Source of the DNA: Armatimonadota bacterium
GTDB taxonomy: Bacteria > Armatimonadota > Armatimonadia > Armatimonadales > Armatimonadaceae
Direction of reading: 5' to 3'
NCBI GenBank assembly: GCA_043754515.1
Contig: JAYUUO010000263.1
Coordinates: 1 to 24,854, forward strand
Length of the DNA stretch: 24,854 nucleotides
A program made the position numbers and the translations under genes. Shown one piece after another: positions 15,062-24,707 of the stretch. The notes under the pieces are model-generated. The model saw only the letters and a program-made list of their open reading frames with translations. It was not told where the DNA came from and did no database searches. The first letter of the stretch is position 1, and each line of letters opens with the position of its first letter.

Positions 15062-16867
15062 CTAGCCGAGCCGGTAGCGGGTTTCCGCCAGGCGATAGAG
15101 TCTGCGCCACACCAGTCGGTTAACGATCACGACGAAGAAACACATCAAAAACACGCCGAGCACGATGCGGGGCCAGTCGCCCTTCGTCGTGGCGTCGGCG
15201 ACGTAGGCACCGAGTCCGCGCGCGACCAGCGTCTGATCCCCCCATTTAACGACCTCGGACAGGATGCTCGCGTTCCACGCCCCGCCCGACGCCGTGATCG
15301 CCCCCGTGACGAGCGACGGGAAAATCGCGGGCAGGATCAGGTGACGCCAGAGCGGCACGCCTTTCAAGCGCATATTGCGTGCCATCTCCCGCAGGTCATT
15401 CGGCACCGCCATCGCGCCCGCGATCACGTTGAACAGGATGTACCACTGCGTCCCGAGCGCCATCAGAAGGATACTGCCCCAGTTGATCGGGAAGCCCGTG
15501 CGCAGGAACACGATGGTCGCCGCCGGGAAGACGAAGTTCGCCGGGAACGACGCCATCACCTGGATCACCGGTTGCATGATCCGGGCGAGGCGCGGGTTGA
15601 ACCCGATCGCGACCCCGATCGGCGTCCATACTATCGTCGCGAGCACAATCAGCAGCGCGACTCGCATCAGCGTCAGAACGCCCAGCCCGAAGGCTTTGAC
15701 TATCTCGCCGGGGGGCACTTCCGACGTCACGAACCGCGCCCCGAAATAGAGCGCGGTAACCAGGAAAGCGGCCAGGGCTATCGCGAACAGGACGTCGCCG
15801 CTCACGCCCAGAACCGCCGACGGGCGGACCGCCTTGACGACGGTGGGCGTGACGGATGCCGGACGCGGCGCGGGAATCAGTGCCACTATCCGGTCGCGGG
15901 CGCGGCGCAACACGCCGCCGATCACGAGCGCGATATGCGCGTCACGGATCAGGTCTAGCACCCACGACTGCGCGTGCTCGCCCGACGCGCTGCGATCCAT
16001 GCGAAACTTCTCCGACCAGGCGACGAGCGGTTTCCAGAACAACTGATCGGTGACGACGATCACCAGCACCATGGTCAAGACAGCCCAGAGTAGCGCGGGG
16101 ACGTTTTTCGCTTCCACGGCTTTTGCGACGTAGGAGCCGATGCCGGGTAGCGTGTAGTCTTTCTTCAGCACCGTGATCGCCTCGCTCGCGGCGAGAAAGA
16201 ACCAGCCACCGCCGAAACTCATCATGCCGTTCCAGACCAGCCCGATCATGGACGCGGGCACCTCGACGGCGATGAACCGACGCCATTTCGAGAAGCGGAA
16301 GACGGACGCCGCCTCGGAAAGTTCGTTCGGCAGGGTGGAAAGCGAGTTATAGAACGAGAACGTCATGTTCCATGCCTGGCCCGTGAAGATGGCGAAGATG
16401 CTCGCGCACTCCAGCCCGAACAGGCTGCCGGGGAACAGGGCGATGAACCCGGTCACGGAGACGGACAGGAACGCCAGCACCGGGATGGATTGCAGGATGT
16501 CGAGGAGCGGCACGAGGACGCGCTCGGCGTAGTGGTTCCGCGCCGCCACGTAGCCATACGGGAGCGTGAACAGGATCGAAAGCACCAGGCCCAGGAACAT
16601 GCGCAAGGTCGAGCGGGCGGCGTAATAGGGCAGGTTACGTGGGTCGAGGCTGATGGTCGGCGAGATAGAGGGCGGGTTGAAGGCGACGAAAAACCCCTGC
16701 CCGATCCGCGCCACGCCGTAGATGAGCAGGAACAACCCGAGCAGAAACGCGACGTCGGCAAGCCCGCGCCCGACGCCCGATTTCGTTCGCGCGTCGCCGA
16801 CCGGGGCGGGCGCGATCTCGCCGCGCCGGAGCGCGATCCAGTTGGAGAACTGTGGTAGTCGAATCAT
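15062..16867 (-). CDS. ABC transporter permease with two fused TM domains (NitT/TauT type)
   Basis: Two EAA-type loops (ELSEAASVFRFS, DLREMARNMRLKG) plus PLLDILQSIPVL and GGAWNASILSE. Start MIRLPQF at 16867 after an AGTAGGA RBS. Confidence 0.92.
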   Translation of the reverse strand: MIRLPQFSNWIALRRGEIAPAPVGDARTKSGVGRGLADVAFLLGLFLLIYGVARIGQGFFVAFNPPSISPTISLDPRNLPYYAARSTLRMFLGLVLSILFTLPYGYVAARNHYAERVLVPLLDILQSIPVLAFLSVSVTGFIALFPGSLFGLECASIFAIFTGQAWNMTFSFYNSLSTLPNELSEAASVFRFSKWRRFIAVEVPASMIGLVWNGMMSFGGGWFFLAASEAITVLKKDYTLPGIGSYVAKAVEAKNVPALLWAVLTMVLVIVVTDQLFWKPLVAWSEKFRMDRSASGEHAQSWVLDLIRDAHIALVIGGVLRRARDRIVALIPAPRPASVTPTVVKAVRPSAVLGVSGDVLFAIALAAFLVTALYFGARFVTSEVPPGEIVKAFGLGVLTLMRVALLIVLATIVWTPIGVAIGFNPRLARIMQPVIQVMASFPANFVFPAATIVFLRTGFPINWGSILLMALGTQWYILFNVIAGAMAVPNDLREMARNMRLKGVPLWRHLILPAIFPSLVTGAITASGGAWNASILSEVVKWGDQTLVARGLGAYVADATTKGDWPRIVLGVFLMCFFVVIVNRLVWRRLYRLAETRYRLG

Positions 16868-17220
16868 TGCTTTTCCTACTCTTTCGACGCGTCGCGACAG
16901 GCCCCGCGGTAACACGACTTCGCGCGCGAAAGGCATGAGGACGTGACGCGTGGCGATGGCAGGTCGCCGCGAAACTAGAGCAAGAAGTAGGGAGACTTAT
17001 CGGGCGCGGCGGAAGCGAACAGCGGTTCTGCCGCGATTCCCGCTAAACGAAGGAAAGGGGCGAGACGCGCGGCTCACGCCGCCGCCGCCGACTGTCGCAC
17101 TCTTGTCGCGGCGACTGCTCGTACTATGACTTGAACCGTTGGACATGATTTTTTTGTGTTCCACCACCCAAACGTAAACTCGTGCCCGTCGCACGGTTCG
17201 TGACCGGTTAGAACCCCGGT

Positions 17221-17250
17221 AGTCTATCGCCGCCCGCCCGTTTTTGTCAA
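17221..17250 (-). promoter_or_regulatory. sigma70-type promoter for the ABC operon
   Basis: TTGACA-18-TAGACT on the minus strand, implying a leader of about 350 nt. Confidence 0.7.
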
Positions 17251-17365
17251 GGGGAGTTTTTGTCAGGGCGATTCGCGGGTAGTGGGGACGTGAACGTTCG
17301 TGGTAAGAAGGGTGGGATGTGCCCCTGGTGGAGCCCTCGCAGGGGAGCGAGGGGCAGGTCCGGTT

Positions 17366-17414
17366 GTCGGGGCGCGGGTGTGTCGTCGGGGCGCGGGCGT
17401 GTCGTCGTGGGGCG
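17366..17414. repeat. 19-bp tandem repeat (2 copies plus a partial) downstream of the RT
   Basis: gtcggggcgcgggtgtgtc / gtcggggcgcgggcgtgtc / gtcgtggggcg. It shares gtgtcgtcg(c/t)ggggc with the 10291 element. Confidence 0.7.
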
Positions 17415-17468
17415 TTCCGTCGAGCGTACCCCACAGCGAACGCCCTGAACTGACCTACCAAAAAGTCA

Positions 17469-18881
17469 CTACCCCACGACAACCACGCGCCCGATCCAAG
17501 CGTGCCGCTCCCGGATCGCCGTAGCCTGTTCCGGGTTTACCATATGTACGAACGATAGGTAGCCCGCCGCGTACGCGTGCGCGTCCTTGCCGAGTGTCGC
17601 CGACACCGCCTCCGCCCCCTTCGTCTTCACCTGATGCAGGAACGCGCGGAAGCGGCGCAGGTCCACCCGCGAGACGCGCGGCGTGCCCGTATTCGTCACG
17701 ACCCCCGTCACGCTCTGCCGGTGGTGCGGGCGCAAGACAACCGTTTTTTCCTCGTTTACCGTGAAGCCCGACTCGGTCAGAATCATGCGCGCCGCCCGTA
17801 GTAGCGCGCCGACCGCCGCGTTCGGCTCCGCGTGCGAGAACACCAGGTCGTCGGCGTAGCGCGTGTAGGTAAACCCCGCCGCGTCGCACAGCCCGGTTAG
17901 CCGCGCGTCTAAACGGCGACACAAAACATTCGTCAGCGCGGGCGACGTACACGCACCTTGCGGCAGACACCGCTCGCCGACTGCGACGAATCGCTTCTCG
18001 CCGCCGTCCAGCGTGATCGCGGCGCGGGGTGCCTCGGTGCAAAGCAGCGCGAACAGCGTCGCGACGCCCGGATTGTAGCCGAAACTCTCGAACAGCCGCT
18101 TCACGCGCTTAAACGACACCGACGGGAAGAAATCCTTCAGGTCGAGCCGTATCACGACCGACTTGCCCGCGTGCTGGGCGGCATTATCGCGGATGTTCAG
18201 ATCAGGGCGGAACGCCATCGCCGCCGCATGCACCGGTAGCGGCTCCAGAATCTGCTTCAGTACGTAACTCTGCGCGGTCCGCAATCGTGCCTTTGGCGAC
18301 GAGATGACGCGCACCCCGCCGCGCTTCTTCGGGATCGTGAAGCGCGAGTAGTGGTCACGCATCACGGAGCCCCGGTGGTAGGTCAGGAACGCCAGGTCGC
18401 CGGTGCCGATCCCGATGGCCCGCGCGACGTCCGCCGCCGTGACCAATTCTGGCAGACCGCCCGCCGCGACTTTCGCCGGGTCGCCGCCCGCGTATTGCAG
18501 GCCCTCCGACACGCCGCGCCCCAGGAACGGCAACGTTTCTTTGCGCCAGAGCGTGTCACCCGCCTTGTGCTCCGCGCGCCGCTTCTCGTTCTCCGCGACC
18601 TTCACGACGCGGGCCGCGCGTACCCGCTCGATCCGCTTGCGCCGTATCTCGCCGATCAGGGCGGGGATATTGCCGGTCTGCCCTATTTCGGCCTCGATGC
18701 CGTTCAGTTCCGAGCGGAGCGCGGCAAGTTCCGCGTACAAAGGGCGCAGTGCCGCTTCCGCCTCCGCGCTTCTCGTGGCGACCTCCGCCGACGGCGGCCA
18801 GTAGCCGAGGCGCGTCATCTCCTCGCGCGTGAACGCCGACTTGCCGACCTCTTTCAACCGTTCGCGTTGCTCGCGATTCAT
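17469..18881 (-). CDS. retron reverse transcriptase with ~150-aa helical N-terminal extension
   Basis: RT core motifs [35 protein letters not shown] and YTRYADDL. Retron-specific NAxxH (NAAQH) and VTG (QSVTGVVTN) are present. ATGA overlap with the upstream gene. Confidence 0.95.
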
Positions 18882-20884
18882 ACCGTCTTTCCTTCCCGCA
18901 TATCCTGGAACTGTTGCTCGGTCAGGACTTTGACCCCTAGCTGCTTCGCCTTGTCGAGTTTCGACCCCGCTTTATCGCCCGCGACCAGATACGACGTGGT
19001 CTTGCTCACGCTCCCCGACGCCTTACCGCCGCCCTGCTCGACGATAGCCTCCGCCTGCTCGCGCGTGAAGAGCGTGAGCGCGCCGGTGAACACAAACGTC
19101 AGGTCTTTGAGCGGCGTCGGGTTCAGCACCGCCCCGCCTCCCGTGCCGCCGCCCGCGCTTTTCACCGTTACGTCCTTCGTGCTCTGCGACGCGGCGAGCG
19201 CGGCGGTCGCCAGTATATGGGGGCACGGACCCTGCCGCAACTTCTCGCGCCGGTAGAACGAGCAGTCGCACGACGCGAAGCACACCCGCCCGTCGCCGTC
19301 GAGATCCAGCACGACGTTGAATTTTCGCTCACGCTTCGACTCGCCGCCGCGCACCGACGCGCGGAACCGCTCGATTGACGGGTCGGCGTTCGCCATCCCG
19401 AATGTGCTTTCCTCGTCCTCGTCCTCGCCCGGCTTTTTGAACACCACGCCGCCCGAACCCGCGATGCGCCGCGCCAGGTTCATCCGCGCGTCGCTCTCGT
19501 CCTCCGGCACGGGGAATGGGAGCAGTTGCCGCCAGCGGTACACGCCGTCCGCCAGGTCGTACATTGCCATCCCTTGCCGACACAGCCGTTGTAGTGCCGA
19601 CGCGGCGGAGTCCTGGGACAGGTCGGAAATACTTGCAAGTTCGGCGGGCGACAACCGGAGCCGCTTTTCTAGCAGTTGCGACGCCTGCGCGACATCGCCG
19701 TCCGTGACCGCTTTGGTCGCCGCGAGCAGGTCGAAGCGTGCCGAACGCGACCAGTCATTCTTCGTCCAGCCTGAAATCCCCATGTCGAACCGGTGCCCCT
19801 GCTGAAACACGGTCCAGTACGACGGCATACCGCTCCCGAGTAGCCGCGCCTCGATTTTGTCCGCGTACGGCAACATATCCTCCAGCGTGAGCAACCGTCG
19901 TCGCCCCCAGATACGGATCTCGCCGGTGAAATCACCCTCGAAGACGTGCGTCGGCTCGCTAATGACGACGTTCCACGGCTCGATCACGATGTTCGGTTTC
20001 TTGCCCGGTTCCAGCACGAACTTGAGCGAGCGCGGCCCCTTGTTCTCGCGGCGGCGGCGTAGTGCCGACAGTACTTCGGCGAGGGTGGACGCCGACAGGG
20101 TGACGTTCGTGCCGGGGAATGTCGCCGCCGACTGCACCTGCAAAAAGCCGCGCACCCAGGTCGGCGGCAGATCAATCTTCTTTTCCAGCCGGTCACCCGC
20201 GCCGGTCGCGACCGATACGCCGCCCGAGTTGACGGATAGAAAAGCGGGACGGTACGACCGAACGCGCCGAATCTCGTTCGCCAGCGCGCGGGAGTAGTCC
20301 ACATTCGTGGTCCCGCATACCGTGGTGCCGAACGTATCGAGCTGATCCATCGGCACCGTTACCCGCCCGTAGCTCGACTCGTCCACCGAGAACACCTCGA
20401 ACACCACGCAGTCGGGGTGGACACTGACCACCGGGTCCAGGATCATCCACGCTTCCCGGTCGTTGTCCCACAGCCACTCGTAATACTTCGCCCGCGCGGT
20501 GTAAAACTCGCCGCCCTGGAGCGACGATTCCAGCGGTGCGGTCTGTTTAGAAAGCTCGGAGAGACGCCCCTTAATCGCCTTCCTACGGTCGTCCAAGCCC
20601 GGCAGACGGCGCAACTGCGTGCCCATCTCAGCGTCCAACTCTTCCAAATACCGCGCCTGCACCCACTTCTGGTAGGCGGTGTAATCCTTCTGCTTCTGCC
20701 GCAGGTCGCTCGAAACCACCGCGTAGAGCGCGAGCATCACCCGCGCGTAACCCAGGCTGTTCTTCACCTGCGCGTCGAGCGAAACGCCGGGGCGCGACAA
20801 TTCGGCGGAAATGGAAAGACGCAGATCACCGTTCGGCGAGATCGTCGCCGTGCTCGGCTTCGCGTAACTCTGTGTAATATCCAT
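18878..20884 (-). CDS. retron-associated SWIM zinc-finger protein with C-terminal BRCT domain
   Basis: Motifs [43 protein letters not shown] and [11 protein letters not shown] CxC-x12-CxH at 19217-19270. LigA/RFC1-type BRCT (FVFTGAL...[33 protein letters not shown]). Start MDITQSY after AAGGAG. Confidence 0.9.
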
Positions 20885-20912
20885 GGTGTTTTTTCTCCTT
20901 ATATATATGGGA

Positions 20913-23900
20913 CTAAACGCCGACAACTCCCTCCAGGACAACCCCCTCGATCACTTCGCCGCGTGACACGCGGCGCGCCAGTTCGCCCAGTGCCCATTCC
21001 GCGTCGCGCGGCGTGCGCGCCCGCGCCAGCGTCAACAGCGTCGCGACGTCCAGGCTCCCCTCGCCCGTCTGCCGCGCCTTGATCCGTTCTTTCGCGACGC
21101 GGGCACGGTTGGTGGCGCGGAGCACTTCGGCGTCGAAACGCGGCGTCGTCTCCGGGCGCGGCGCGCTATTCTCGCCCGGCCGCACGGCGTCGCCGAGTTG
21201 CGCGGCGACGAACGCCTGCATCTCCGGCGCGGGGTTCTCGAATAGCGCGGACAACACCCGTTCGCGGGGCAGGGTCGCGGCACGATCCGTGACGTATGCG
21301 ATGCCAAGGGCGCGGACGTCGGCGAACGGGCTGTCGCACAGCGCGAGCGCGTAGTCCGTTTCCCGCTCCCCGCCCGTCGGCTCCGCGTCGAAGAACGACT
21401 TTCCGACCGCCATGCTCGGCGGTAGCGCGGACTCCAGCAGCCGGAGCGCGAACGGCATGCTCATCCCGAGTTCGGTGACGCGGACGAGCGACGGTGTCCG
21501 CACCTCGGGGAGCGGGTGCGTCGCGCCCTCGTAGAGTAACGACGAATCGCGGGTTAGTCGCGCCATGTGATGCGTCACCCACGCGCCGAGTAACGCCCCG
21601 AACTCCGGCGCACGGATCGCCAGCACCCGCTCGTCGTCCACGAGCAGTAGCGTTTCCGCGACTTCCGGGTCACCGAGAAGTCGCGCTTCGAGCCGGTTCG
21701 TGGCGTCGTCTGCCACCGCGCTCTCGGCGGCGAGCCATATCTCGCGCGTGCCGACGCCGCTAGATAGTTGCCGCAACCAGACCGGGCGGAGCAGGCGGTA
21801 ATGTTCGTCCGGCGACGCCGCGATCAGCGCGAGCACCACCGACGCGGGCGCGGACGCGGCTACCGAAACGAACGCTTCGGGGGAGAGCAGACCGACCAGG
21901 AACGGGCGGCTCGCGACATGCGCCGCGAGTTCCGGCGCACCGATCCCGGCGCGTTCCAGCAAACCCAGCGCGTCCGCCGAACCCATCGCGGATGTGAGCG
22001 CGTCCGTCACCACGGGGCTTGCAAGCAGTTCGTCCCACAGTGGCTTGAGCACGTCGCCGCCGGTCACGCTCGCCGCTAGCATCCGCCAGCCGCCCAGCCG
22101 CACGAAGGCGTCGGAATGGTACACCAGTTGCCTCGCGGCCTGGCGATCCAGCGCGACGGAGCGCATGGCGGTGCCCAGCGCGGCCAGCACCGGCTCGCTT
22201 CGCGCCACGTCGCCGAGTCGCGATAATTGCGTCAGCCACGCGAGCAGATTCTCCGGTGCCGCCCGCCCCGCGCCCACCACGATGACCGACTCCAGTTCCG
22301 CCCGCCCGGACGCCAGAAACGGCGCGACCAGCGGCAGCAAGGTGTCGGGACGCGGGGCGATAGCCCACGAGAAGTAGCGGGCGAGTAGCATCGCACTATC
22401 GGTCTGCCGCCGCGACATCGCCAGCCGCGCCGAATCGGCCGGCTTGATCAGTTCCGCGAGGCGCAGGGCAAACTCAAGTGCCCAGCCTTGTTTGGTCGCC
22501 CAGCGCGGTGCCTGCTCCCGCGCCAAAGCCCCGCGCACCGACGCGTTCGCCCGGTAGAAGACGTCGGCGGCGAGCGTATTAGTAACCGATTCGCCCGCCA
22601 GTAGCCGCGCCGCGATGAGGCGCACCGCGAGCGCGATCAACAGCGGCTCGGCGGACGCGACCCACGCCGCGAGCACGGCGTCGGCGATCGGGGGCAGGGG
22701 TTGCCGGTTCGTACGCAGTACCCGCGCCGCGAACGCCTGCACCGGCAACGTGGTGCCGGGCGCGGTCAGTAGCCGCGCCAGCAGATCGGGCCGCGCGTTC
22801 CACGCGTCGGGAAATCGCTCCTCGCGCGTGCGCAGGGCGAGTTTCGGCGGCGGCTTCGGGCCGGGTATATACCGCCCGCGCCCGTGCCGCGTTTGCAGCA
22901 ACCGTTGCCCGCCGCCGAACAGCGTGTCAATCGTCGCCCAGTGCTGCGCCGGGTCGAGCGTTCCGGCCTTCACCGCCAGCAACATCTCGGTCGCGACCTC
23001 GGCGTAGCGCGGCGCGTCGGACTTCGCCAACTTGCGCAACACGCGCCGCCCGCGCCGCTTCATGTAGCCGATCGTGTCGCCGCTCGGCGGTGCCCCGACC
23101 CGGGTGGGCGTCTGAGGAACGGCGAGGGAAAGGATCGCGACGCCGCTGTACGGGCTTAGAATGTATGCCACGTCGCCCGCGATGTGCATCTCCGTCGTGC
23201 CCTGGAACGCGCCCCCGCTCGCGATGAGTACCGGCGCGGCAGGGTCCTGTATATCCAGTATGTGGAGCGCGCCGTTCTGATCCCACGCATACAGGTAGCG
23301 ACCGTCCGGCGGTAACACCATGCCGACTATCTTGCCGAGCGCGGCGAACCCGGCGCGGCGCGGGTTCCAGGGGTCGCTCAGATCCACCACCTGAACCCCT
23401 GACTCGTCGGCATTGGCGGACACGATTCCGGCGTAGACGAACTGCCCGCGCATCACCACGCACACCGGATAGGGCAGATCAAGGCCCCCGACCTGACGCA
23501 GTTTCGTGGAGTCGGAAATATCTAATATGCGCACGCCGCCGCTCTGCGGCAGACGGTTCGACGCGGAGCCGGCCGGAGTAACCGTGACGACCGCGAGATT
23601 TCCCCCGGTTGCGACGTTTCCCGGCGAGGCCGAGCGGTAAGCAGATGTCGGCGATTTGAATACCATTCCGCCCGCGAGCGTCAGCGCGTCTGGATCGCGC
23701 AGGTCAATGACGCGGAGCGCGGTGCCCGACTGTCCCGGCGTTTCCGCATACAACAGGTACGAGGCCGCGTCGGCGTCGCTGATCGCGGGCATGGTAGGCT
23801 TCCCGAGAGCGAGTTTGCCGCGTAGCCGGGGGCGAGCCGGGTCGGATATGTCCACGAGTTGCAACACGCCATCGGAACTGCTGTTCATAAACAGACACAG

Positions 23901-24368
23901 GAGCGATCCGCGCCGGGTCGCCGTTATCAGCGCACCGAAGGTGCCGGGCATGGCGAGCGTCGCCACGCGGAGCGGTTTGAGCGGGTTCGCCGGGTTGCGC
24001 GTGTACACACCGAGCGTCTTTTCGTTCCAGTTGTAGCCGTAAGCCAGAAACAGGTAGTCGCCCCTCACCGCGAGGCTATTCGCGTATTCGCGTATGCCCC
24101 AGTTCACGCGCGGGTTCCGGTCGCCGAGTGTAATCGGGGCGTCGTCCATGCGGGCGAGTAGCGTGCCGAGGAGCGCGGAGTCCGACCCCGTACTCACCAC
24201 ATCCGCCTCCGCAACCTTGTAAAGTGCCTTAAAGCGGTCCCACGTCCCGTAGGTCAGTGACGCTTCGCGGGCGAACGTGAGTAGCGTCTCCCGATCGGCG
24301 GCCGATTCGGGGGGATAAGGTAGGTCTCGCGGCAACGAAGCCGCGAGGACGACACCGGCGTCCGGCAT
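20913..24368 (-). CDS. retron-associated ARM/HEAT-like helical protein with inserted LVIVD-type beta-propeller (1151 aa)
   Basis: Start MPDAGVV after AGGAGA. Propeller repeats [44 protein letters not shown] and [12 protein letters not shown]. The Leu/Ala-rich helical C-terminal two-thirds has HEAT-like ATHPLPEVR and [13 protein letters not shown]. Confidence 0.82.
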
Positions 24369-24395
24369 GGAAAACAGTCTCCTCGCAATCAGCAA

Positions 24396-24678
24396 AAAAA
24401 GCGTTACCAGAAACACGAACAACCGGATACCGTGGACGGCTACTAACCGGGGAGGACCGGCGATGTCCACTGTAAGCCCGCCCTGCACTAGGGGATACTA
24501 TAGGGCGGTGGGCGCAGCCCCCTCAGCGCTGACGGATAGTACCCCCTAGTGCGGGGCGGGCTGAGTCGAGACGGCGTCCGGTGATGTAAAGCTGGCTTTA
24601 CGGCTATCGCGGCGAAACGCCGCGGATAATGCTAACGATCCCGGTATTCGGTTGTTCTTGCTTCGGGTAACTGTTTTT
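24396..24678 (-). ncRNA. retron msr-msd ncRNA
   Basis: Inverted arms 24396-24432 and 24642-24678 are complementary at 31 of 37 positions. An imperfect inner extension (24434-24442 with 24633-24641) ends at UUA-G-C, giving candidate branch G 24632. Two short msr hairpins (24608-24624, 24586-24601) and a 27-bp msd stem (24475-24501 with 24536-24562, 25/27) lie inside. Confidence 0.88.
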
Positions 24679-24707
24679 AGTGTAGCAGAAACGGAACAAA
24701 AAAACAA
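24679..24707 (-). promoter_or_regulatory. promoter of the retron operon
   Basis: TTGTTT-17-TACACT with extended -10 (TGcTACACT). The predicted +1 at about 24672 coincides with the start of the well-paired part of the arm (GUUACC). Confidence 0.7.

What the first reader, a model, noticed from the sequence alone, without database searches (positions are those of the whole stretch)
24396..24678. msr-msd ncRNA located 5.5 kb upstream of its RT, readable base by base
Seen, minus strand 5' to 3': a long arm of about 45 nt including its inner extension; UUAGC with an unpaired G at 24632; hairpin CGCGGCG-UUU-CGCCGCG; hairpin GUAAAG-CCAG-CUUUAC; a 27-bp stem; then the complementary arm. Knowledge: branch Gs follow the a1/a2 stem, in the UUAGC context in Ec86. 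Inference: the msDNA is roughly 130-140 nt, equal to plus-strand ~24443-24580. ORF callers would hide the ncRNA by extending the ARM ORF to 24488.
Basis: partly seen in the sequence, partly recalled or inferred. Interest (0 to 1): 0.8.

Follow-up and report, generated by a model that had tools for sequence, protein, structure and literature searches.

The report
Retron template RNA far from enzyme
This is the template RNA gene of a known class of bacterial reverse-transcriptase system (a type XIII retron); in this lineage it sits beside a partner gene instead of beside the enzyme, occurs in extra copies in some relatives, and has a fast-changing but perfectly paired DNA stem.

Summary
It is the msr-msd RNA of a type XIII retron (ncRNA, ARM/propeller, SWIM-BRCT, RT) in an Armatimonadota-like genome. 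In 25 homologues 97.8% of cells pair and 30 of 49 pairs change on both sides. The msr hairpins tolerate G-U (42 G-U, 2 A-C), while the msd part tolerates A-C (4 G-U, 28 A-C), as expected if it works as the complementary DNA. Predicted branch G24632; msDNA about 137-142 nt, starting at 24444. The gap is the rule here: 31 of 31 same-contig loci in the phylum have 4.9-8.2 kb. msDNA, transcript ends and function are not shown. The scan had already noted this layout, tandem RNAs and the clamp fold in other genomes.

The parts
24679..24707 (-). Putative sigma70-type promoter (TTGTTT-17-TACACT with TG before the -10 box); predicted start near A24672
   Evidence: Sequence. The strict scanner finds none here. 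A TTG-N16-18-xAxxxT site lies at the 5' end in 13 of 31 copies, against 1.9% of random genome windows. Inferred.
24633..24678 (-). 5' arm (a2) of the terminal duplex
   Evidence: arms re-pair in all 25 homologues with unrelated sequences
24632..24632 (-). Predicted branching G (GTTA[G]C), unpaired, opposite G24443
   Evidence: Context GTTA[G]C in 23 of 25 aligned copies, GCTA[G]C and GTCA[G]C in one each; the 4 pairs before it are standard pairs in 100 of 100 cells. The motif was used as the anchor. TAGC context per PMC6868368 section 6.
24607..24625 (-). msr hairpin A (8-bp stem, 3-nt loop), likely RT recognition hairpin
   Evidence: 99% of cells paired, 3 of 8 pairs change on both sides. PMC6868368 gives an 8-bp stem with a 3-nt loop for the Ec86 recognition element; the role here is inferred.
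24586..24601 (-). msr hairpin B (6 bp, variable 4-nt loop); probable stop for reverse transcription
   Evidence: 95.3% paired, 1 of 6 pairs changes on both sides; stop position inferred
24444..24585 (-). msd: template of an msDNA of about 137-142 nt (equal to the + strand), with basal ACCGG/CCGGT stem, internal loops, long stem and conserved loop
   Evidence: DNA fold z = -5.0; upper-bound length 142-147 nt in 25 of 25; G-U versus A-C asymmetry
24475..24562 (-). Long msd stem (27 bp) around a 34-nt loop; sequence hypervariable among homologues, pairing near perfect
   Evidence: 640 Watson-Crick of 645 in-register cells; 26 of 27 pairs with changes on both sides; divergence
24396..24442 (-). 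3' arm (a1), followed by a T run (24400-24394) that may attenuate read-through
   Evidence: A T-rich tail was found in 9 of 31 copies against 5% background, with noisy arm ends.
20913..24368 (-). Type XIII partner 1: helical N-terminus, inserted LVIVD beta-propeller (about 95-414), HEAT/ARM solenoid (430-1135); 1151 aa
   Evidence: PADLOC, Pfam, model pLDDT 86.8; only generic propeller+solenoid matches
18878..20884 (-). Type XIII partner 2: PCNA-like clamp fold (34-374), winged helix, SWIM (CxCx12CxH), BRCT; 668 aa from ATG 20884
   Evidence: SWIM_XIII 2.2e-166; VIA Z 18.6, rmsd 2.8 over 232 residues to archaeal PCNA; Foldseek; DEDE pattern in 33 of 35 homologues
17469..18881 (-). Retron reverse transcriptase, type XIII, 470 aa with N-terminal extension; start overlaps the SWIM stop (ATGA)
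   Evidence: RT_XIII best of 69 PADLOC families; NAAQH 233, YADD 342, VTG 391

Best explanation
24678-24396 is the msr-msd gene of a type XIII retron and heads a four-part unit: ncRNA, ARM/propeller, clamp-SWIM-BRCT, RT. SHOWN by comparison: the fold, its conservation, the branch-G context, the fixed msd length and the link to type XIII genes. INFERRED: a promoter at 24707-24679 gives an RNA of about 280 nt; part of the transcription reads through into the three genes. The RT, made from the far end of the operon, finds the RNA by diffusion (in trans), binds hairpin A, primes from the 2'-OH of G24632, copies from A24444 to about 24580-24585, and leaves a branched RNA-DNA with a blunt 27-bp DNA hairpin. 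The partners read the shape and length of that hairpin rather than a fixed sequence; the clamp-fold SWIM protein is the likely binder, since a hairpin has a free end that a ring could slide onto without a loader (about 0.35). The complex most likely acts as an msDNA-gated sensor, as in other retrons (about 0.5; untested for type XIII in what I read).
For: Fold z = -8.1. Covariation: 97.8% of 1217 cells paired, 30 of 49 pairs and 319 cells with two-sided change, 0 of 500 shuffles, slid controls 33-47%; RNAalifold recovers the same helices. Strand test: msr 42 G-U / 2 A-C, msd 4 G-U / 28 A-C; without the one outer column 4 / 8. Co-occurrence: 18 of 19 genomes with the RNA have RT_XIII, out of 151 searched; the exception has ARM and SWIM on broken contigs. 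RNA directly before ARM, 4.9-8.2 kb from the RT, in 31 of 31 same-contig loci (compiled). RNA+ARM unlinked from SWIM+RT in G005, G010, G016. Clamp fold.
Against: No msDNA, 5' end or mutant data. The one RNA-run contig identical to the locus (24194-24449, depth about 6) may be DNA carry-over. No Rfam family matches, and the published type XIII covariance models could not be run. The sequences are related and the structure was drawn from them, which inflates pair counts. Most of the A-C signal comes from one column (20 of 28). The RT stop site is not fixed by any data here. A shared fold shows no function, and ring formation was not tested. 2 of the 23 RT_XIII-positive genomes gave no convincing RNA hit (G104, G106), and the model found none near the cyanobacterial, archaeal or Bacteroidota RTs.
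Confidence: 0.9

Rival explanations
1. The structure is a cis-regulatory leader (attenuator or riboswitch-like) of the ARM gene and not an RT template.
For: It stays with the ARM gene when the system splits; a T run follows the 3' arm; an RNA-run contig spans the arm and the ARM start.
Against: Stand-alone copies have no ARM gene downstream (0 hits in 9 loci, 0.5-6.3 kb held). In two planctomycete loci the homologous RNA lies between SWIM and RT. The msd part avoids G-U. Anatomy matches msr-msd (PMC6868368 section 6). A secondary attenuator role is not excluded.
Confidence: 0.05
2. It is an msr-msd, but the variable stem is only a neutral spacer: free sequence plus template-switch repair of a long palindrome gives fast, self-compensating change, and the extra copies are passive duplications.
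For: Stem identity (86 of 181 positions over 8 pairs) is below but not far below RT fourfold-site identity (54-75%), and one pair goes the other way. Stems match nothing in viral contigs (one 20-mer tested). In another retron the stem sequence can be replaced without losing a trigger interaction (PMC12746101 passages). Two G006 copies are truncated.
Against: A tandem pair in L006 differs at 18 of 36 stem positions but at only about 5 of 290 elsewhere, promoter included (counted by eye). Stems are enriched in TAG/GTA words (ACTA 33 against 4.5 expected) and in internal dyads (26 of 51 against 13.1 +/- 2.8). Most extra copies are intact, several with promoter-like sites.
Confidence: 0.45
3. A host repeat or retroposed relic that happens to lie before the operon.
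For: Dispersed copies exist in relatives; repeated msr-msd copies without a nearby RT are reported for Retron-Nex1 (PMC6868368 passage).
Against: Single copy in this genome; fixed position before ARM across several families; the presence of the RNA tracks RT_XIII; promoter-like sites upstream of the copies cannot come from reverse transcripts.
Confidence: 0.03

Closest known systems
Type XIII retrons (RT clade 10; Retron-Mxa1/Mx162, Mxa2/Mx65, Sau1/Sa163, Nex2/Ne144; Mestre et al. 2020, PMC7736814)
   Same: RT_XIII with N-terminal extension; SWIM/DEDE/winged-helix partner preceded by a WGR/HEAT-ARM gene; msr-msd with terminal arms, short msr hairpins and a long msd stem; msDNA size close to the 144 in the name Ne144.
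   Different: The RNA heads the unit, two genes away from the RT, and follows the ARM gene when the unit splits. BRCT and propeller domains are added. Tandem and stand-alone copies occur. The passages read describe the SWIM protein as possibly transposase-derived, whereas its model here has a PCNA fold. Figure 5 and the supplement, which may show RNA positions, could not be seen.
Retron-Nex1 (Ne160) repeats of Nannocystis exedens (Lampson and Rice 1997, seen only as cited in PMC6868368)
   Same: Several msr-msd copies with no RT within a kilobase; a distant RT was proposed.
   Different: Here the RT is identified and the copies are mostly full length, with promoter-like sites and different stems, which points to DNA-level duplication rather than retroposition.
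   Same: TAGC branch context at the end of the a1/a2 stem; 8-bp/3-nt msr hairpin; best PDB sequence match of the RT.
   Different: Different clade and partners; arms of about 45 nt; longer msDNA.

Membership tests
Retron (general) | Retron-type RT with NAxxH, YADD, VTG | tested here: met
   NAAQH 233, YADD 342, VTG 391 (NAxxH and VTG motif names recalled); best PDB matches are retron RTs
Retron (general) | ncRNA with complementary 5' and 3' ends | tested here: met
Retron (general) | Unpaired priming G in (T)AGC at the inner end of the stem | tested here: met
   G24632; 25 of 25 aligned copies; criterion from PMC6868368 section 6
Retron (general) | 1-3 short msr hairpins and one long msd stem (about 10-50 bp) | tested here: met
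   8-bp and 6-bp hairpins and a 27-bp stem, with covariation
Retron (general) | ncRNA and RT in one transcriptional cassette | tested here: inconclusive
   Co-directional, gaps under 30 nt and an ATGA overlap; no transcript spanning them was seen; unlinked in three relatives
Retron (general) | ncRNA immediately upstream of the RT (typical, not defining: 'frequently' in 10.1101/2024.01.25.577267) | tested here: not met
   5.5 kb away; nothing nearer
Retron (general) | Makes 2'-5' branched msDNA | not testable with these tools
   Indirect only: strand asymmetry, constant length
Type XIII | RT of clade 10 | tested here: met
   RT_XIII 481.7 bits, next best 292.8; profile score, no tree built
Type XIII | Partner with DEDE motif, winged helix and CxCx12CxH SWIM | tested here: met
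Type XIII | WGR-like / HEAT-ARM accessory gene before the SWIM gene | tested here: met
Type XIII | Match to published ncRNA models XIIIA/B/C | not testable with these tools
   Models named in PMC13712802 but not held; Rfam has no match
Anti-phage retron | Protection against phage that depends on RT, msDNA and effector | not testable with these tools
   No data

The most novel reading that the evidence does not exclude
Type XIII retrons of this lineage use a small repertoire of template genes served in trans by one RT. Each makes an msDNA with the same frame and length but a different, actively diversified stem (often a spaced palindrome rich in TAG/GTA), which is threaded by a PCNA-like SWIM-BRCT ring and acts as a set of distinct baits for foreign DNA-binding or DNA-modifying proteins.
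Probability: 0.22. Interest if true: 0.8.

Novelty: new variant of a known kind. Interest (0 to 1): 0.5.

Why it matters
Type XIII contains the first retrons ever found, yet I found no mechanism for it in the papers searched. (1) It gives exact, testable coordinates for a template RNA that searches confined to the few hundred bases before the RT would miss and that ORF callers overwrite. (2) Natural splits and stand-alone copies argue that the RT works in trans and that the RNA is tied to the ARM gene. (3) A fixed-length, freely variable, perfectly paired stem next to a clamp-fold partner suggests what the msDNA is for, and marks a natural insertion site for retron-based editing. The identification itself is a correct but expected member of a classified family.

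Tried and rejected
Rfam: two chance hits below threshold, none on the RNA. Strict promoter scan: 0 sites. Second copy in this genome: none by pattern, covariance model or nhmmer. Phage-borne copies or a captured-spacer origin of the stem: no exact match in viral contigs for one consensus motif and one stem 20-mer; narrow tests. Expression: one of the four runs laid was RNA; it gave one identical contig (24194-24449) and one diverged piece on msr (24560-24630); contigs cannot show strand or ends and DNA may be present, so this is not counted as evidence. Palindromic 4- and 6-mers in stems exceed mononucleotide shuffles but hardly dinucleotide ones (20 of 300 and 67 of 300), so a restriction-site bait idea is not supported. 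The window's own stem arm has no stronger dyad than its shuffles. Terminator role of the T run: only 9 of 31 copies. Fold search of the ARM protein: generic matches, TM about 0.2. A trimer prediction of the clamp domain was not obtained, so ring formation is open. Literature searches returned no paper describing this layout, stem hypervariability, a PARP-linked or a clamp-fold type XIII partner; the library lacks most subscription papers and the Mestre supplement was unreadable. The match at the end of G016 C646 is a perfect fold-back and was treated as an assembly artefact.

Full report
OBSERVATION. The terminal duplex ends with GTTA paired to TAGC, leaving G24632 unpaired opposite G24443. 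The ORF scan runs the next gene up to GTG 24488; a GGAG site and homologue starts favour ATG 24368 (a start of the expected form was found in 17 of 19 loci).

CONTEXT. Downstream on the same strand lie an 1151-aa gene (WGR_XIII and HEAT-ARM_XIII hits, LVIVD repeats), a 668-aa SWIM_XIII gene with a BRCT domain, and a 470-aa RT whose best of 69 PADLOC families is RT_XIII. The RT start overlaps the SWIM stop, so there is no room for an RNA there, and an unfiltered model search of 16000-24300 gives at most 9.4 bits. The closest RT relatives in named records are Armatimonadota. This is the type XIII set of Mestre et al. (PMC7736814; I saw the abstract, passages and sections 12, 16, 17; the supplement was unreadable).

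HOMOLOGUES AND COVARIATION. The DNA matched 17 of 41 related genomes. Of 28 matching stretches extracted, 25 full-length ones were aligned; three partial ones were left out. On the structure drawn from the fold, 97.8% of 1217 cells pair, 30 of 49 pairs change on both sides, no shuffle of 500 reaches these values and slid controls pair 33-47% (the count of further pair types was not above shuffles, 102 of 500). RNAalifold gives the same helices. The sequences are related, so these are not probabilities. A strand test separates the halves: the msr hairpins have 42 G-U and 2 A-C cells, the msd helices 4 G-U and 28 A-C, of which 20 are one column. A-C in RNA is T-G in the complementary DNA. The window's single stem G-U is a Watson-Crick pair in contigs of two of the three DNA runs laid (24495 A to G). 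The span from the base after the opposite G to hairpin B is 142-147 nt in all 25.

POSITION. In 151 genomes of the phylum the model hit 19 and RT_XIII 23; 18 have both. The RNA-only genome has its operon broken by contig ends. Of the five RT-only genomes, three showed a full or contig-end match on refetching and two did not. In all 31 loci of the phylum with RNA and RT on one contig the gap is 4.9-8.2 kb, median 5.56 kb (a hand compilation that includes three partial matches at contig ends). Outside the phylum, L006 (Hazenella) has two tandem RNAs 4.6 kb upstream, while two planctomycete loci (L016, L019) have the RNA between SWIM and RT; the other non-Armatimonadota RT loci gave no hit. Both layouts therefore exist within type XIII.

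SPLITS AND EXTRA COPIES. In G005, G010 and G016 the RNA stays before the ARM gene while SWIM and RT lie on another contig; in G005 both halves are mid-contig with unrelated neighbours. Tandem pairs occur in G019, G043, G083, G118, G163 and L006. Nine further copies in five genomes (G004, G006, G011, G014, G016) have no ARM hit in the 0.5-6.3 kb held downstream (one is cut by a contig start); the neighbours that could be named are ordinary metabolic or transport genes. All dispersed copies come from fragmented assemblies, so the genome they belong to is less certain than their local context. The window's genome has one copy. Repeated msr-msd without a nearby RT is reported for Retron-Nex1 (PMC6868368, passages and section 6; the original paper not seen).

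THE STEM. In four pairs the flanking core is 98-100% identical while about half of the stem differs, mirrored on both arms (23 pairs compared, chosen as close relatives or paralogues). Ungapped stem identity is below RT fourfold-site identity in 7 of 8 pairs. In the L006 tandem, 18 of 36 stem positions differ against about 5 of 290 elsewhere. Stems are rich in ACTA/CTAC/GGTA words, and 26 of 51 arms hold an internal dyad of 5 bp or more against 13.1 +/- 2.8 in dinucleotide shuffles; this is a tendency, absent in the window's own arm. Relaxed sequence plus palindrome repair, or diversifying selection, could each explain this; the data do not separate them.

PARTNERS. The model of the SWIM protein (pLDDT 74.8) matches PCNA-type clamps over residues 34-374 (Z 18.6, rmsd 2.8, 232 residues), followed by a winged helix and a BRCT domain whose best match is the DNA-binding BRCT of RFC p140. 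The ARM protein is a propeller inserted into a helical solenoid with only generic matches. Neither shows function.

MECHANISM. Shown: anatomy, conservation, linkage. Inferred from retron biochemistry (PMC6868368 section 6): priming at G24632, copying of 24444 to about 24580-24585, RNase H removal of the template, and a short 3' hybrid. Inferred from the splits: action in trans. Speculative: the clamp binds the blunt hairpin by shape, and the complex is an msDNA-gated sensor; methylation of msDNA motifs triggers other retrons (PMC12548924, passages), while stem sequence was dispensable for a helicase trigger in another (PMC12746101, passages).

NOVELTY. Type XIII and models of its RNA are published (PMC7736814; PMC13712802, passages and section 8, which searched 10 kb around each RT and so may already have hit such RNAs). 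PMC8867640 (passages) had nothing on this. My nine searches found no description of the head-of-operon layout, the splits, or the variable stem. The scan itself had noted the same four-part layout in another Armatimonadota genome, tandem RNAs in a cyanobacterium and a clamp-fold partner. Verdict: real, correctly identified, a new variant of a known kind; interest 0.5.

Noticed in passing
L064:5158-15134, L066:5135-14201, L068, L074 (family f5): A second type XIII system with the order ncRNA (longer stem, 38-47 bp), a ~435-aa gene, a ~1280-aa gene, SWIM without BRCT-length tail, RT. The ~435-aa protein of L066 has WGR, PARP_reg and PARP domains. No paper was found for retron + PARP + WGR.
   Followed up: partly
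L047:1990-2169 and L085:30-212 (G006): Two truncated copies keep promoter, msr and the left stem arm, then continue with the same unrelated 3' sequence ending in a terminator-like hairpin; real partial copies or mis-joins.
   Followed up: no
L083:5694-5815 (G010): Operon-linked copy whose msd stem is reduced to about 7 bp; deletion or assembly collapse.
   Followed up: no
L055, L058, L057, L038, L039, L040, L050, L051: An extra hairpin of about 20 nt is inserted between the branch G and hairpin A in several genera.
   Followed up: partly
L049, L007, L052, L075, L076, L081, L084: Contigs often end inside or beside this RNA gene, so metagenome assemblies probably under-count it.
   Followed up: no
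window:618-5324 (-): Phage-like cluster with a Mu-type gpT major capsid gene (618-1547), a probable head protease/scaffold and a GDSL-like gene; probably a prophage remnant unrelated to the retron.
   Followed up: no
window:10502-11764 (-): 420-aa ORF with a weak HTH hit, resembling a replication-initiator-type protein (impression only).
   Followed up: no
L057:9102-9821 (G019): The SWIM gene is in two frames (frameshift near residue 230-240).
   Followed up: no
L089:6455-7028: An intact RNA is followed by only a short match to the ARM N-terminus, with no SWIM or RT hit in 7 kb.
   Followed up: no
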